This document shows, one piece after another, positions 35,234 to 48,639 of a stretch of 48,701 nucleotides of DNA. Both the position numbers and the translations under genes were made by a program. Location: positions 1 through 48,701 of the forward strand of contig JACPEJ010000003.1 of NCBI GenBank assembly GCA_016183565.1, written 5' to 3'. Under the pieces are notes generated by a model. It ran no database searches. It worked only from the letters and a program-made list of their open reading frames with translations, and was not told the DNA's origin. Source of the stretch: Candidatus Blackburnbacteria bacterium. Its GTDB lineage: Bacteria; Patescibacteriota; Microgenomatia; UBA8517; UBA10165. How positions within the stretch are numbered: position 1 is the first letter of the stretch; each line of letters opens with the position of its first letter.

Positions 35234-35347
35234 ACTCGCGCACAGCGCGAGTCAGCCATAAAGCTATTAGGCTATAAAGCTATGATGTCTTTTCTTCATA
35301 GCTCTATTGCTTCATTGCGACATAGCTAACTTGTGCTATGCACAAGT
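35234..35347 (-). repeat. hairpin-bounded rRNA mini-insertion, copy E1 (core type A)
   Basis: actcgcgc-aca-gcgcgagt at 35234-35252 and acttgtgc-tat-gcacaagt at 35329-35347. The core is rich in ataaagctatt / cttcatagct. Confidence 0.8.
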
Positions 35348-35640
35348 GTTTTGGATTCCTCATCTTGGGGTGGGCTTCCCGCTTAGATGCTTTCAGCGGT
35401 TATCTCATGGGAACGTAGCTACCCAGCGGTGCCATTGACATGACAACTGGTAAACCAGGGGTTCCCCCATGCTGGTCCTCTCGTACTGAGCACAGCTCCC
35501 CTCAAGAATCCTTCGCTTACACCGGATAGAGTCCGAACTGATTCACATCGTTCTGAACCCAGCTCGCGTAATGTTTTAATGGGCGAACAGACCAACCCTT
35601 GGGAGGTACTACCCCCCCAGGATACATTGAGCCGACATCG

Positions 35641-36452
35641 CATTTAAACCTATCCATTTTCATGGTAGCCTGACTATACCTTCACCCACTGAAACAAAAT
35701 GGGTGTCAACGTATTATGAAATGAGGTTTCTCATTTCATCTGTCCCGATGTAACTCGGGACAAGTCGATACGGGGTCAAGTTAATTAGACGATAGATGAT
35801 AGAAAATAGAAAATAGATCTTTGATGATAGAAAATAGACAATGGATTAATAAGTTTTCCAGTTATTCCTTAGGTTGGTAATTTTTCCACCTAAAGCAATA
35901 TACCTTGTAATTAACCCGTTGCAAACATCCTTATTTATAAAACCTAAATCTCTTGCCATGCTTAAATGAACTTCCATTTCATTGCAAGAGCCTAAGGACT
36001 TATCAAGGTGGACCTTAAATTCTTTTTCAAATCTCCTTTTAGCCCACCCTTCTGCAATATTTGCTGGAGGTGATTTAGAGCATCTTCTCAGTTGAGAACC
36101 TAAATCATTTTTCTCATACATTGGAAGTTTTTGACAAAGTTTGTTGACAATAATTGCCAATTCATAACTTTCTTTGTACACTCCCAAATCTTTGAAGCTC
36201 GTTATCATATCTCCATTATCTATCTTCTATCTTCAAATTACTATCTTCTACCCTCTATCATCTACCGTCCACACTAACCGACTTCCCACGGTATTACCCT
36301 GTGTCATTATTTAACTTTGAACCAAATCCAAAGTCAAGTCTGTTTTTGACCTTAAGGGCTCCACCGTTATGAGTTGATATTTCGTTCAAACCACTGGGTA
36401 GTGTTTGAACAACAGCACTCTGACGTTGCCGTCGGAGGACCCCGATATGTTG
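35641..36452 (-). mobile_element. group I intron in 23S after the E. coli U2500 equivalent
   Basis: The exon reads CUACCU|...|CGAUGUCGGCUC. The 5' exon ends in U and the intron ends in G. Core motifs GAAGGUAUAGUC (35672-35683), GACCCCGUAUCGAC (35764-35777) and GGGUAAUACCGUGGGAAGUCGG (36278-36300). Confidence 0.8.
35846..36208 (-). CDS. four-helix-bundle protein (23S rRNA intervening-sequence protein family, TIGR02436-like)
   Basis: 120 aa. FKDLGVYKESYELA, QLRRCSKSPPANIAEGW and GSCNEMEVHLSMA match the family pattern. It lies wholly inside the intron. Confidence 0.88.
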   Translation of the reverse strand: MITSFKDLGVYKESYELAIIVNKLCQKLPMYEKNDLGSQLRRCSKSPPANIAEGWAKRRFEKEFKVHLDKSLGSCNEMEVHLSMARDLGFINKDVCNGLITRYIALGGKITNLRNNWKTY

Positions 36453-37006
36453 AGGTAGCGAACCGCGCCGTCGATATGGACTCTCGGGCGCGACTACTCT
36501 GTTATCCCCGGGGTAGCTTTTATCCGTTAAGCTCGTAGTCTCCCACGAAACTATCGAGGATCACTAGGACCTGCTTTCGCACCTGCTCGGCCCGTCGGCC
36601 TCACAGTCAAGCCGGCTTATGCCCTTACACTTACAGCACGATTTCCATCCGTGCTAAGCCGACCTTTGTACTCCTGCGTTACCTTTTAGCAGGATACCGC
36701 CCCAGTAAAACTGTCCGTTAAACATTGTCCCCGAACCCGTTTGCAGGGCCCTTAGGTAAGATTTAAATTCACCAAAGAGAGGTGTTTCACTGGCCCCGCC
36801 CAAACTTTCTTGCGAAAGAATGTTGGCGGGTCCCTCCTACGCTAAACAATTGGTAAATCCAAATCAATGTCAAACTACAGTAAAGCTCCACGGGGTCTTT
36901 TTGTCCTGGTGTAAGTAGGCCGCATCTTCACGGCCACTGCAATTTCACCGAGTAGAGGTTCGAGACAGCTGCCAACTCGTTACGCCTTTCGTGCAGGTCG
37001 GAACTT

Positions 37007-37210
37007 CATGTTTGTTCTCGCGCTTTCGCGGAGCATGGACTCTCTCTTCCCCCGACGTTACGTCGGGAGGTCAGCGTTTGGTCTCTACGGGGTCAACCCT
37101 TCGATTAACTCAGGGCGACTTCCCTCGGGATTACCGTGTCCACCTGTTGGCGGATTTAGGCTTCCCCGATATAGCTAACATGGGCAATTCTAGCTGCACA
37201 CTAGAGCTTT
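37007..37210 (-). mobile_element. compact ORF-less group I intron after the U1951 equivalent
   Basis: 204 nt. The 5' exon ends ...GUCGGGU and the intron ends ...AACAUG. Core motifs GGUAAUCCCGAGGGAAGUCG (37116-37137), GACCCCGUAGAGAC (37081-37094) and GAAGAGAGAGUCC (37038-37049). Confidence 0.7.
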
Positions 37211-37218
37211 ACCCGACA
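37211..37218 (-). other. 8-nt 23S micro-exon UGUCGGGU (helix 71 5' strand)
   Basis: Joining UUCCU + UGUCGGGU + AAGUUCCGACC reproduces the universal UUCCUUGUCGGGUAAGUUCCGACC. No other GUCGG partner for the CCGAC strand exists nearby. Confidence 0.65.
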
Positions 37219-47225: not shown

Positions 47226-47275
47226 AACAGATCCCTAGCGAGCATAGTTTACGGCTAGGACTACAGGGGTCTCTA

Positions 47276-47739
47276 CAAGTTTGTTGCACAAACTTAAATT
47301 CAAAATTTAAAGTTCAAAATGCAAAATTACATTTTAAAATTAAAGGTTGAAAAAGTTTCGGCTAAGACATTTCTGCTCAGCTCTCCATGTTGCCATGGAG
47401 GTCGGACTATATCTTCATCCCGAGCTAAGCTCGGGAGCCGACGTGTAGTCTCTACGGGGTCAAGTTACTATTGAGGCTAGACAGTAGAAACTAGATGTTA
47501 GAACTTGATGCTAGATGTTTGAGCCTAGTAGGTGCTTTACAAACTTCTAAATCACGAAACGTCTTTTATCATCAAGCATCGACCTTCTAACTTCAAGGTC
47601 GAACTTCTAATTTCCATCGTCTAACCTCAACATAACCGACTTCCCTCGGTATTACCCTTCGACTTTGTTCAGGGCTTCACCGATACAGTTGGATTTTCTC
47701 ACGTAGTGTTACCACTACGGGGGACTAGAGACAAGCTCC
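47276..47739 (-). mobile_element. ORF-less group I intron in 16S after the U788 equivalent
   Basis: Exons read GCGAAAGGGAU | ... | UAGAGACCCCUGUAGUCC. P1 is GGGAU/GUCCC and P10 is GUCUCUA/UAGAGAC. Core motifs GAAGAUAUAGUCC (47404-47416), GACCCCGUAGAGAC (47448-47461) and GGGUAAUACCGAGGGAAGUCGG (47636-47659). Confidence 0.82.
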
Positions 47740-48294
47740 ATCCCTTTCGCTCCCCTAGCTTTCGTTCCTCAGCGTCAGATATTTCCTAGGTGCCCGCCTT
47801 CGCTGTTGGTGTTCCTGTCGATATCAACGGATTTCACCCCTCCACCGACAGTTCCAGCACCCCCGGAAGATCTCTAAGCATGATCGTATCTTGCGACCAA
47901 TCCCGATTAAGTCGAGATCTTTAACACAAGACGCATCACGCCGCCTACGAACTCTTTACGCCCAGTAAATCCGGACAACGCTTGCACCCTCCGCATTACC
48001 GAGGCTTCTGGCACGGAGTTAGCAGGTGCTTATTCTCCCCGACGTGTGTCGGGACAAAAGGAGTTTACAACCCGAAGGCCTTCATCCCCCACGCGGCGTC
48101 GCGGCGTCAGACTTTCGTCCATTGCGCACGATTCCCGGTTGCTGCCACCCGTAGGTGTAAGGACCGTGTCTCAGTTCCTTTCTGGGGGGTCGTGCTCTCA
48201 CACCCCCTACCCGTCATAGCCTTGGTAGGCCGTTACCCTACCAACTAGCTGATAGGCCGCAGGTCGTTCCCTAAGCGCGCCGTTAAGCGCTTTT

Positions 48295-48438
48295 ACTCAC
48301 GCACAGCACGAGTCAGCCATAAAACAGCAAAGCTGTCTTCAACTTCGTATAAAGCTATTAGGCTATAAAGCTATGATGTCTTTTCTTCATAGCTCCATAG
48401 CTTCATTGATACATAGCTAACTTGTGCTATGCACAAGT
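48295..48438 (-). repeat. hairpin-bounded rRNA mini-insertion, copy E8 (core type A)
   Basis: actcacgc-aca-gcacgagt at 48295-48313 and acttgtgc-tat-gcacaagt at 48420-48438. The core is nearly identical to E7. Confidence 0.8.
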
Positions 48439-48520
48439 GGTATGGAGTATTACCCCGTCTTTCGACGAGCTATTCTTCTCCCTAAGGTAAGTTCTCACGC
48501 GTTACTCACCCGTCTGCCAC

Positions 48521-48639
48521 TCTCGTGCGAAGCACGAGAACTACGAACTGAGAACTTAGAACAAAGAATAAAAATAAATTATTCCTTATTGTTCTTAGTT
48601 CTTGGTTCTTTGTTCATAGTGCTTGTGCTCCGCACAAGC
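48521..48639 (-). repeat. hairpin-bounded insertion, copy E9 (core type C, expands h6)
   Basis: tctcgtgc-gaa-gcacgaga at 48521-48539 and gcttgtgc-tcc-gcacaagc at 48621-48639. The core is a long gaacttagaac/gttcttagttc hairpin. Confidence 0.7.

What the first reader, a model, noticed from the sequence alone, without database searches (positions are those of the whole stretch)
35234..48639. Nine rRNA insertions share the same two terminal 8-bp/triloop hairpins but carry three unrelated cores
The 23S copies are at 35234-35347, 38465-38580, 39135-39286, 39342-39463 (truncated), 40015-40129 and 40414-40529. The 16S copies are at 47082-47225, 48295-48438 and 48521-48639. On the + strand each copy begins with ACTCGYSC-NNN-GSRCGAGT and ends with ACTTGTSC-NNN-GSACAAGT. 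The two hairpins resemble each other. The stems co-vary: gcgc/gcgc versus gccc/gggc, and gtgc/gcac versus gtcc/ggac. Where the + strand shows C-A mismatches (47087/47095, 48299/48309, 48300/48308, 40111/40129), the rRNA-sense strand has G-U wobbles. The hairpins therefore look selected as RNA in the rRNA sense. All copies have the same orientation. Three different cores sit between the hairpins: an ATAAAGCTAT/CTTCATAGCT-rich core (6 copies), an AT-rich AATTTGAAATTTAAAATTTG core (2 near-identical copies), and a GAACTTAGAAC hairpin core (1 copy). Host sites include the helix 25 and helix 45 equivalents of 23S, which are the classic RNase III-excised IVS sites, plus 16S h6, the h9/h10 region and h26. 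I know of no described element class defined by conserved terminal hairpins with exchangeable cores. The hairpins could be a shared excision or processing signal. Alternatively they could be the ends of a hairpin-recognised mobile module, similar to IS200/IS605 PATEs or acting at RNA level.
Basis: partly seen in the sequence, partly recalled or inferred. Interest (0 to 1): 0.9.

Follow-up and report, generated by a model that had tools for sequence, protein, structure and literature searches.

The report
Conserved-ended hairpin inserts in stable RNAs
The rRNA genes of this candidate-phyla-radiation bacterium carry nine hairpin insertions with the same two palindromic 17-base ends, and the same ends flank over 100 insertions in rRNA and RNase P RNA genes of about 70 other such bacteria, which looks like an undescribed shared processing module.

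Summary
All nine copies sit at the stated coordinates, and 17 end-motif matches fall inside the rRNA operon against 0.2 expected by chance.

It is also general. The same pair of ends occurs in 75 loci from roughly 70 CPR genomes. It is always in the RNA-sense orientation, at recurrent helix tips of 23S and 16S, in spacers, and in four RNase P RNA genes.

The two "triloops" are complementary to each other in 106-107 of 108 elements. The helix continues in the long-range register on both sides. RNAfold closes 109 of 109 elements with the 5' end paired to the 3' end. So the ends form one quasi-palindromic 17-21 bp basal duplex of a single long rod. It has fixed G·U wobbles in the outer half and A×C mismatches in the inner half.

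Cores are hypervariable, low-complexity palindromes. They are near-identical between sites within a genome even where the loops differ. One type-1 core lies in frame inside ychF without the ends.

Best reading, inferred only: these are RNase III-type intervening sequences with a conserved basal module and DNA-level core exchange. No RNA data were available. I found no prior description of the module.

The parts
35234..35347 (-). Full element in 23S H98 (E. coli ~2797-2814). Type-1 core. Loops in RNA sense AUA/UGU.
38465..38580 (-). Full element in 23S H63 (~1722). AT-rich type-2 core. The A end is degenerate but still pairs through G·U in the RNA sense. The relative L006 has an empty site here: a short native hairpin with no target-site duplication.
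39135..39286 (-). Full element in 23S H45 (~1181). Long type-1 core. Loops UUC/GGA.
39342..39463 (-). Partial copy with core plus A end only, 100% identical to 39135-39256. It replaces native H44 and the 3' strand of H42. Either a rearrangement or an assembly artefact.
40015..40129 (-). Full element in 23S H25 (~546). Type-1 core.
40414..40529 (-). Full element at 23S ~275. Type-2 core. Loops GUU/AGC. L006 has the same ends and loops at this site but a different core.
47082..47225 (-). Full element in 16S h26 (~836). Type-1 core with an extra side hairpin.
48295..48438 (-). Full element in 16S h9/h10 (~181-218). Its core is 94% identical to the h26 copy.
48521..48639 (-). Full element in 16S h6 (~68-89). 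Type-3 core (GAACNNN 7-nt repeats). Loops GGA/UUC.
44615..44700 (-). Type-1 core-like hairpin in the spacer just 3' of 16S. It lacks the B and A ends.
27118..27182 (+). Type-1 core-like palindrome inside ychF (ORF 26295-27359, minus strand). It encodes a 20-aa in-frame insertion absent from 7 homologues. No B or A ends.
34990..40870 (-). Host 23S rRNA gene. It also carries group-I-like introns with LAGLIDADG and PF05635 ORFs.
44720..48701 (-). Host 16S rRNA gene. Its 5' end is cut by the window edge. It also carries introns with LAGLIDADG ORFs.

Best explanation
These are members of a CPR-wide family of self-contained hairpin inserts (intervening sequences) in stable RNA genes.

SHOWN. In the RNA sense each element reads 5'-CUUGUSC-NUN-GSACAAG (end B), then a core, then CUCGYSC-NGN-GSRCGAG-3' (end A). 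B and A pair with each other over 17-21 bp, so the insert is one long rod that coaxially extends a peripheral host helix. This basal duplex is quasi-palindromic. The outer half, next to the host helix, is fully paired with fixed U·G wobbles. The centre is a U·G pair. The inner half carries A×C at the symmetry-related positions.

INFERRED. The long dsRNA rod is cut out of the precursor by the dimeric dsRNA endonuclease RNase III, which CPR genomes retain. The conserved basal module positions the cut. Its outer half (B1:A2) stays behind as a clamp that holds the RNA fragments together. Because each end is also a palindrome, every segment can fold locally as it is transcribed and then branch-migrate into the rod.

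SHOWN AS PATTERN, MECHANISM INFERRED. The ends are resident at each site and inherited vertically. The cores are genome-specific, low-complexity palindromic repeats. They are copied or converted between sites at the DNA level, and occasionally elsewhere, for example in frame into ychF.
For: Conservation and distribution:
- 75 loci from about 70 MAGs across Microgenomates, Parcubacteria, Saccharibacteria-labelled and WWE3 lineages carry the motif pair.
- 114 of 125 B..A pairs are in the rRNA sense and none is truly antisense.
- Sites recur: 23S ~270, H25, H45, H63, ~1870, ~2100-2200, H98; 16S h6; leader, trailer and spacer.
- Four elements lie in RNase P RNA genes. Rfam RF00010 scores three of them at E = 1e-20 to 2e-28.

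Long-range duplex:
- Loop-loop pairs hold in 106-107 of 108 elements with many compensatory changes, and the helix continues on both sides.
- Local extension does not hold.
- The minimum-energy fold is a rod in 109 of 109 elements.

RNA-level selection: the sense strand is more stable in 100 of 109 elements.

Orientation of the asymmetry: the outer half carries G·U and the inner half A×C in all elements. The same rule holds in variant ends.

Plausibility of IVS and RNase III:
- H25 and H45 are the classical IVS sites.
- Tsurumaki 2024 (PMC11270868) leaves the short, ORF-less CPR insertions uncharacterised, suggests they are RNase III IVSs, and cites Brown 2015 that the insertions are removed from transcripts.
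- CPR genomes retain rnc (PMC12641178).
- From general knowledge, RNase III cleaves dsRNA of about 20 bp or more with little sequence dependence.

Core exchange:
- 13 of 71 intragenomic different-site pairs have at least 85% identical cores, against 7 of 989 intergenomic same-site pairs.
- 7 of those 13 intragenomic pairs have different, mutually compensated loops.
- The 7 similar intergenomic pairs share loops, apart from one single-base difference in a B loop.
- At 23S ~270 and at H98 the window and L006/L074 share ends and loops but have different cores.
- A type-1 core lies in ychF and another in the spacer, both without the ends.
Against: - No RNA-level data were available, so excision, the enzyme and the cut sites are all inferred.
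- RNase III does not normally need a conserved sequence. Near-invariant ends across phyla therefore suggest a sequence-specific partner that I have not identified.
- Each end is a perfect Watson-Crick palindrome while the long-range duplex keeps two A×C mismatches. One variant (L034) has a U-A to A-U flip that preserves the local pairs and breaks the long-range pairs. So local hairpins, or strict two-fold symmetry, are also under selection. The proposed co-transcriptional folding role is only a rationalisation.
- A palindrome with an odd centre does not match the 2-nt stagger of RNase III exactly.
- The sites largely coincide with eukaryotic expansion-segment sites, so retention is not excluded.
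- How new sites are colonised is unexplained.
Confidence: 0.5

Rival explanations
1. Retained expansion segments. The rods stay in the mature rRNA and RNase P RNA. The conserved basal module is a structural or protein-binding element, for example a docking site for a CPR-specific protein.
For: - The sites are surface helix tips that carry expansion segments in eukaryotes: H25, H45, H63, H98 and h6.
- The rod coaxially extends the host helix.
- Strong sequence conservation, beyond what structure alone needs, suggests a specific binding partner.
Against: - The elements also lie in leaders, trailers and spacers, which are discarded anyway.
- Cores are AT-rich, hypervariable and differ between close relatives.
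- dsRNA of 40-70 bp should be an RNase III substrate, and CPR genomes keep rnc.
- Brown 2015, as cited in PMC11270868, reports that CPR rRNA insertions are removed from transcripts.
Confidence: 0.2
2. A non-autonomous mobile DNA element (MITE- or PATE-like). Its palindromic ends are binding or cleavage sites for a dimeric transposase, recombinase or nuclease acting in trans. The RNA features exist only because insertions that fold benignly survive.
For: - Each end is a perfect 7-3-7 DNA palindrome, typical of sites for dimeric DNA-binding proteins.
- The element is present at at least 15 different sites, and at one site in an apparently non-CPR operon, L029.
- Near-identical copies occur within genomes.
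- Filled and empty sites exist among relatives, for example H63 in the window versus L006.
- A type-1 core is inserted in frame in ychF.
Against: - 114 elements are in the sense orientation and none is antisense. Every match in 185,579 genomes lies in a stable-RNA transcription unit and none in ordinary intergenic DNA.
- There is no target-site duplication and no conserved target.
- Loops co-vary to keep pairing and tolerate G·U only in the RNA sense.
- Cores move without the loops.
- The ychF and spacer copies lack the ends.
- No transposase gene is in the window.
Confidence: 0.15
3. A protein-dependent intron or bistable cruciform module. The two local hairpins, which together with the host helix and the core helix form a perfect four-way junction, are the recognised form. 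A structure-specific nuclease cuts at both hairpins and the exons are religated, so the stable RNAs stay intact.
For: - Both ends are perfect Watson-Crick palindromes while the long-range duplex keeps A×C mismatches.
- A local-pair-preserving transversion occurs in L034.
- The four-way junction would have no unpaired nucleotides and could branch-migrate.
- The elements sit in RNase P RNA and at sites where no expansion segment is known to me, such as ~1870 in H68.
- Solo B-like or A-like hairpins cap the same sites in other genomes and could be footprints or ancestors.
Against: - The local fold is ~7 kcal/mol less stable than the rod in all 109 elements.
- Loop complementarity and helix continuation are unexplained by a purely local fold.
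- No B1-loop-A2 hybrid footprints exist in 541 kb of loci.
- No candidate nuclease or ligase was identified.
- There is no bulge-helix-bulge geometry.
Confidence: 0.12

Closest known systems
Bacterial 23S rRNA intervening sequences excised by RNase III (Salmonella, Campylobacter, Leptospira, Coxiella, alpha-proteobacteria)
   Same: - They are extended stem-loops that replace the tips of H25 and H45.
- Their distribution is sporadic.
- They are presumed to be excised without ligation.
- Tsurumaki 2024 already guessed that the short CPR insertions at these sites are of this kind.
   Different: - One conserved 17-21 bp quasi-palindromic basal module is shared by insertions at at least 15 sites in 23S, 16S, spacers and RNase P RNA across many phyla.
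- As far as I know, classical IVSs share no such module between sites or taxa and are essentially confined to 23S.
- The cores here are interchangeable, low-complexity palindromes.
Correia/NEMIS and similar MITEs whose transcripts fold into hairpins cleaved by RNase III
   Same: - They are ~100-150 bp palindromic elements with inverted terminal repeats.
- The RNA hairpin is an RNase III substrate.
- Many near-identical copies occur per genome.
   Different: - Correia elements are intergenic, occur in both orientations and carry a TA target duplication.
- The elements here lie only in stable-RNA units, only in the sense orientation, and show no TSD.
- The ends here are themselves palindromes.
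Rickettsia palindromic elements (RPE)
   Same: Small palindromic repeats that are tolerated inside functional genes at structurally permissive positions, including in-frame insertion in protein genes. The type-1 core in ychF behaves this way.
   Different: - RPEs have no conserved processing-type ends.
- RPEs are not concentrated in rRNA.
- I did not test sequence relatedness, and the mechanism of RPE spread is itself unknown.
IS200/IS605-derived PATEs (hairpin-ended, TnpA-mobilised)
   Same: Hairpin-forming sequences at both ends, strand-specific insertion, and no TSD.
   Different: - PATE hairpins are imperfect and subterminal. I am not aware that PATE ends are complementary to each other.
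- PATE insertion occurs 3' of a fixed tetra- or pentanucleotide.
- Here the ends pair with each other, there is no common target, and no TnpA gene is in the window.
Archaeal bulge-helix-bulge introns in tRNA and rRNA
   Same: A pseudo-two-fold-symmetric RNA motif at the insert boundaries, in several kinds of stable RNA, recognised by a dimeric enzyme. The interiors are variable.
   Different: - There are no 3-nt bulges separated by 4 bp. The helix here is continuous, with wobble or mismatch pairs.
- The hosts are bacterial.
- No EndA or ligation evidence exists.
Eukaryotic and archaeal rRNA expansion segments
   Same: The same kinds of surface helix tips are used, and the sequences are fast-evolving and low in complexity.
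   Different: Expansion segments have no conserved basal module shared between sites, and they are retained in mature rRNA. Retention here is untested.

Membership tests
RNase III-excised rRNA IVS | Replaces the tip of a peripheral 23S helix (classically H25 or H45) | tested here: met
   Window copies map at ~546 and ~1181. Across the loci, 26 elements map to 23S positions 500-549 (the H25 site) and 24 to positions 1100-1199 (the H45 site).
RNase III-excised rRNA IVS | Folds into a long double-stranded stem-loop | tested here: met
   The minimum-energy fold is a single rod in 109 of 109 elements. Mean energy is -53 kcal/mol. Covariation supports the closing duplex.
RNase III-excised rRNA IVS | Absent from mature rRNA, giving fragmented rRNA; cleavage by RNase III | not testable with these tools
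   No RNA data are available. The only evidence is indirect: the literature reports that CPR genomes keep rnc and that insertions are removed from transcripts.
RNase III-excised rRNA IVS | Confined to 23S rRNA | tested here: not met
   Elements also occur in 16S (h6, h9/10, h26), in leaders, trailers and spacers, and in RNase P RNA.
MITE (Correia-like) | Terminal inverted repeats | tested here: met
   The 17-mers are complementary at 15 of 17 positions counting G·U pairs, with A×C at the other two positions (one of which is A-U in 27 of 108 elements).
MITE (Correia-like) | Target-site duplication | tested here: not met
   Comparing H63 filled (window) with H63 empty (L006) shows the loop replaced with no duplication. 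Flanks show no repeats.
MITE (Correia-like) | Dispersed in intergenic DNA in both orientations | tested here: not met
   114 elements are in the sense orientation and none is antisense. All matches in the genome collection lie in stable-RNA units.
IS200/IS605 PATE | Insertion 3' of a conserved short target; ends not complementary to each other | tested here: not met
   There is no conserved flank. The ends, loops included, are complementary.
IS200/IS605 PATE | Cognate TnpA (HUH Y1) transposase in the genome | tested here: inconclusive
   None is found among 37 window ORFs scanned against Pfam. The rest of the genome is not available.
Group I / group II introns and self-cleaving ribozymes | Match to a catalytic RNA model | tested here: not met
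   Rfam in E-value mode gives only sub-threshold plant miRNA-precursor (generic hairpin) hits on the elements.
Archaeal BHB intron | Two 3-nt bulges separated by a 4-bp helix at the boundaries | tested here: not met
   The boundaries form a continuous helix without bulges.
Rickettsia palindromic element-like repeats | Palindromic repeat inserted in frame in a protein gene | tested here: met
   This holds for the type-1 core only. A 60-nt, 20-aa insertion in YchF is absent from 7 homologues, aligns to the cores over ~66-72 nt (roughly 80% identity) and shares a 19-nt exact match with them.
rRNA expansion segment | Retained in the mature ribosome | not testable with these tools
   No RNA or structural data are available.

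The most novel reading that the evidence does not exclude
The B/A module is a previously undescribed, CPR-wide, two-fold-symmetric RNA signal. It is bistable between a rod and a cruciform-like four-way junction. It marks removable cassettes in all kinds of stable RNA (16S, 23S, RNase P RNA and spacers). A dedicated or adapted dimeric nuclease recognises it, possibly with religation, which would make these the first protein-spliced introns of bacteria. At the DNA level the module also serves as a safe landing or exchange site for genome-specific palindromic repeats, and it can cross phylum boundaries (L029).
Probability: 0.2. Interest if true: 0.9.

Novelty: new variant of a known kind. Interest (0 to 1): 0.75.

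Why it matters
CPR bacteria make up a large share of bacterial diversity, and their rRNA genes are notoriously interrupted. The short ORF-less insertions have been left as 'uncharacterised, probably IVS'.

A single conserved module would matter in four ways:
- It gives a concrete, testable handle on how CPR process their stable RNAs. One can test which enzyme acts, where it cuts, and whether the products are fragmented or ligated.
- It gives annotators a motif for recognising and masking these inserts in 16S and 23S genes and in RNase P RNA genes, which often fall below Rfam thresholds.
- It shows a two-tier evolutionary system of site-resident ends and freely exchanged palindromic cores that spill into a protein gene. 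This bears on how selfish palindromes are tolerated in minimal genomes.
- The symmetric arrangement of G·U and A×C pairs is an unusual RNA design whose recognition logic is unknown.

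Tried and rejected
- Rfam at gathering threshold and in E-value mode finds no family for the elements. Only sub-threshold miRNA-precursor hairpin hits appear.
- I looked for excision footprints, meaning hybrid hairpins of the form B1-loop-A2 or A1-loop-B2. None exist in 541 kb of loci.
- I tested whether the 23S processing stem shares the motif. The window stem contains CUUGUCGC/GCGACAAG. In other loci the ACAAG there is explained by boxA (my reading of the stem sequences), and duplexfold over long flanks was noisy, so I dropped the idea.
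- I searched for the window's own genome, to count type-1 cores genome-wide, using the 19-mer GCTTTATAGCCTAATAGCT.
- BLAST of an element against phage and plasmid collections found nothing meaningful.
- The identical H25 element in L006 looked like evidence of horizontal transfer. I rejected it because the 100% block spans ~545 bp of 23S, not just the element, so chimeric assembly or recombination is as likely.
- I treated the 'Gammaproteobacteria' and 'Nanoarchaeota' labels as unreliable for the loci I checked. L006/L074 have CPR-like rRNA (82-91% identical to the window in two 23S segments) and L058/L066 match the bacterial LSU model. I did not check the other such labels one by one.
- A scan for B..B ends found only 2 genuine CPR elements, against ~70 genomes with B..A. 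The other hits were unrelated tandem or direct repeats.
- One Rfam call failed. Brown et al. 2015 is not held in the library.

Full report
CONTEXT. The window ends in a CPR-type rRNA operon on the minus strand. It holds 16S, two tRNAs, a few protein genes, 23S and 5S. The rRNA genes are interrupted by group-I-like introns with LAGLIDADG ORFs and by one PF05635 'IVS protein' ORF. The nearest named relatives among the fetched loci are Microgenomates: L035 Blackburnbacteria at 80-83% in 23S, and L045 Woesebacteria at 81-86% in 16S.

OBSERVATION. The palindromic end motif CTYGYSC-NNN-GSRCRAG, allowing up to one mismatch, occurs 17 times. All 17 lie inside 35235-48638, against 0.2 expected, and 0 of 100 shuffles reach that count. 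Alignment to E. coli rrnH places the copies at 23S ~275, H25, the H44 region, H45, H63 and H98, and at 16S h6, h9/h10 and h26.

FOLD. In the rRNA sense, every full copy folds into one long hairpin. The 5' 19-mer (end B, CUUGUSC-NNN-GSACAAG) pairs with the 3' 19-mer (end A, CUCGYSC-NNN-GSRCGAG), 'loops' included. The plus strand folds less well and often falls back on local hairpins.

GENERALITY.
- A scan of one genome per species (185,579 species) for the A end, then 76-106 nt, then the B end returned 75 loci. They come from Levy-, Roizman-, Woese-, Gottesman-, Curtiss-, Blackburn-, Chisholm-, Ames-, Uhr-, Yonath-, Jorgensen-, Staskawicz- and Harrisonbacteria, plus Parcubacteria-, Saccharibacteria- and WWE3-labelled MAGs.
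- Other loci carry non-CPR labels such as 'Gammaproteobacteria' and 'Nanoarchaeota'. The ones I checked have CPR-like (L006/L074) or bacterial-type (L058, L066) rRNA.
- Allowing one mismatch per end, I extracted 125 B..A pairs. Of these, 114 are in the rRNA sense. Six 'antisense' pairs are artefacts formed between the ends of neighbouring sense elements. Five had no E. coli-like flank.
- Four of those five lie inside RNase P RNA genes. L026 and L027 carry the element in P12. L053 and L059 carry it between P5 and P7/P8. Rfam RF00010 scores three of them full-length at E = 1e-20 to 2e-28, below its gathering score because of the insert.
- Sites recur across phyla: 23S ~265-280, H25, H45, H63, ~1850-1890, ~2090-2225 and H98; 16S h6; and 16S leaders, trailers and spacers.
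- No match in the whole collection lies in ordinary intergenic or coding DNA.
- One locus, L029, looks like a normal non-CPR operon. Its LSU scores 2915 bits and it has no other insertion, yet it carries an element with a CPR-type core in 16S h6.

COVARIATION.
- On 108 distinct non-window elements, the three loop positions, which my search left as NNN, pair between B and A in 106, 107 and 106 cases. They use 6, 5 and 4 pair types and show 63, 7 and 56 double-sided changes. The centre is U·G in 81 cases.
- The helix continues in the long-range register. The position outside the ends pairs in 83% of elements, and the two positions inside pair in 95% and 92%.
- The corresponding local extensions pair in 44-57% of elements, about the shuffled level.
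- Each 7-bp local stem is Watson-Crick in over 99% of cells.
- The B:A duplex has fixed U·G at position 3, U·G or U-A at position 5, and A×C (or A-U) at the symmetry-related positions 13 and 15.
- So the non-Watson-Crick pairs sit at dyad-related offsets of ±4 and ±6, plus the centre. G·U always falls in the outer half and A×C in the inner half. Variant ends with changes at other positions obey the same rule.
- B..B elements, in which the duplex is fully Watson-Crick, exist but are rare: 2 CPR loci.
- Sequence alone cannot separate two ideas: that local hairpins also form, and that the duplex must be two-fold symmetric. Both predict the same constraints.

ENERGETICS. The sense strand is more stable than the antisense strand in 100 of 109 elements (mean -53.3 versus -43.4 kcal/mol). 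The long-range fold beats forced local hairpins in 109 of 109 elements, by a mean of 7.3 kcal/mol.

CORES.
- Cores are hypervariable and are built from 7-9-nt periodic repeats. The 5' arm is A/C-rich and the 3' arm is G/U-rich.
- Within genomes, 13 of 71 different-site pairs have at least 85% identical cores. Between genomes at the same site, only 7 of 989 pairs do.
- In 7 of those 13 intragenomic pairs the loops differ and are mutually compensated. For example, L006 has 100% identical cores with GUU/AGC at one site and AUA/UGU at another. The 7 similar intergenomic pairs share loops, apart from one single-base difference in a B loop.
- The window and its ~85% relative L006/L074 share ends and loops at 23S ~270 and at H98 but have different cores. 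H63 is filled in the window and is a short native hairpin in L006, with no duplication.
- So the ends are resident at each site, and the cores are exchanged or homogenised within genomes.
- Cores also exist without the ends. A type-1 core lies in the 16S-tRNA spacer. Another lies inside ychF, where it adds 20 in-frame residues that are missing from seven homologues.
- AT-rich palindromes resembling the type-2 core lie in two intergenic regions.

INTERPRETATION.
- Shown: the family exists, its RNA-sense rod structure holds, its basal module is conserved, it is restricted to stable-RNA transcription units, and the cores are mobile.
- Inferred: the rods are excised by RNase III, with the conserved module positioning the cut and its outer half remaining as a clamp.
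- In favour of the inference: the sites are classical IVS sites, CPR genomes retain rnc, CPR insertions are reported to be removed from transcripts, and long dsRNA is a generic RNase III substrate.
- Unexplained: the near-invariant sequence, the local palindromy and the fixed A×C pairs.
- These gaps keep three other readings alive: retention with a protein partner, a DNA-level palindrome-binding enzyme, and a cut-and-ligate pathway acting on the four-way-junction form.

LITERATURE. The systematic survey of CPR rRNA insertions (PMC11270868) leaves the short, ORF-less, non-intron insertions uncharacterised and does not mention hairpins, palindromes or inverted repeats. A study of circularised CPR genomes notes 'large extensions of helices' in RNase P RNA without a motif. 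Other searches found nothing closer. Within what I could search, the module is undescribed.

CAVEATS.
- The search pattern fixed most stem positions, so only the loops, the S and Y/R positions and the flanks are unbiased.
- MAG assemblies may homogenise repeats.
- The partial copy at H44 and a 545-bp block identical to L006 raise assembly questions for this window.

Noticed in passing
window 27118-27182 (inside ORF 26295-27359, minus strand): A type-1 core-like palindrome is inserted in frame in the YchF GTPase gene. It adds 20 residues (LLGYKAMKHNSDIASLHHSI) that are absent from seven homologues. This resembles the behaviour of Rickettsia palindromic elements.
   Followed up: yes
window 44615-44700: A type-1 core-like hairpin lies in the spacer just 3' of 16S, without the conserved B and A ends.
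   Followed up: partly
window 39342-39463: The 'truncated' copy is 100% identical to 122 nt of the H45 copy. It replaces the universally conserved H44 hairpin and the 3' strand of H42 in the GTPase-associated centre. The relative L006 has native H44. This is either a real damaging rearrangement or an assembly artefact. The element core contains AUAGCCUAAUAGCUCA, which matches native H44 (AUAGCGUAACAGCUCA) at 14 of 16 positions.
   Followed up: partly
window ~39715-40260 versus L006: A ~545-bp block of 23S, including the H25 element, is 100% identical to L006. The flanking 23S is only ~75-90% identical. This points to a chimeric assembly or recent recombination between lineages.
   Followed up: partly
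L026:445-578, L027:3756-3870, L053:1999-2123, L059:5616-5741: The same B..A elements sit in RNase P RNA genes, either in P12 or between P5 and P7/P8. They push those genes below Rfam's gathering score.
   Followed up: yes
L029:1337-1467: An apparently non-CPR operon (Thermodesulfovibrionales label, LSU 2915 bits, no other insertion) carries an element with a CPR-type core in 16S h6. This is either horizontal transfer or a chimera.
   Followed up: partly
window 35846-36208 (minus strand), with arms 35788-35845 and 36212-36269: An ORF of the PF05635 '23S rRNA intervening sequence protein' family (to my knowledge related to the Avd proteins of diversity-generating retroelements) lies between 58-nt low-complexity inverted repeats, inside an insertion at 23S ~2500. 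That insertion also scores weakly as a group I intron.
   Followed up: no
window 6255-6410 and 25150-25260: AT-rich periodic palindromes resembling the type-2 core, and the cores of other CPR genomes, lie in intergenic regions outside the rRNA operon.
   Followed up: partly
L017 (H45), L038 (23S ~270), L049 (H63), L060 (two sites): Solo B-like or A-like 7-bp/triloop hairpins cap the same helices where other genomes carry full elements. They could be ancestors or remnants.
   Followed up: partly
window 40579-40615: A GC-rich hairpin insertion in 23S (~E. coli 227) of a different kind is absent from L006. Similar GC-rich palindromes are nested in some cores (L016, L041) and occur in intergenic DNA at 41380-41450 and 44420-44460.
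   Followed up: no
window 34784-34932: The 5S rRNA match spans 149 nt for a 120-nt model, which implies a ~29-nt insertion in 5S.
   Followed up: no
window 41319-44184 and 14845-17930: Protein genes lie between 16S and 23S together with two tRNAs: a serine hydrolase, a MazG-like protein, an unknown protein, and two short plus-strand ORFs that by eye look like a toxin-antitoxin pair (not scanned). Elsewhere, two tandem HisRS paralogues flank a tRNA gene.
   Followed up: no
loci L006/L074, L058, L066 (record titles): These contigs are labelled Gammaproteobacteria or Nanoarchaeota but carry CPR-like (L006/L074) or bacterial-type (L058, L066) rRNA. For these loci the record taxonomy is unreliable. 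Other loci with non-CPR labels (Caldithrix, Nitrospirae, Bacteroidetes) were not checked individually.
   Followed up: partly
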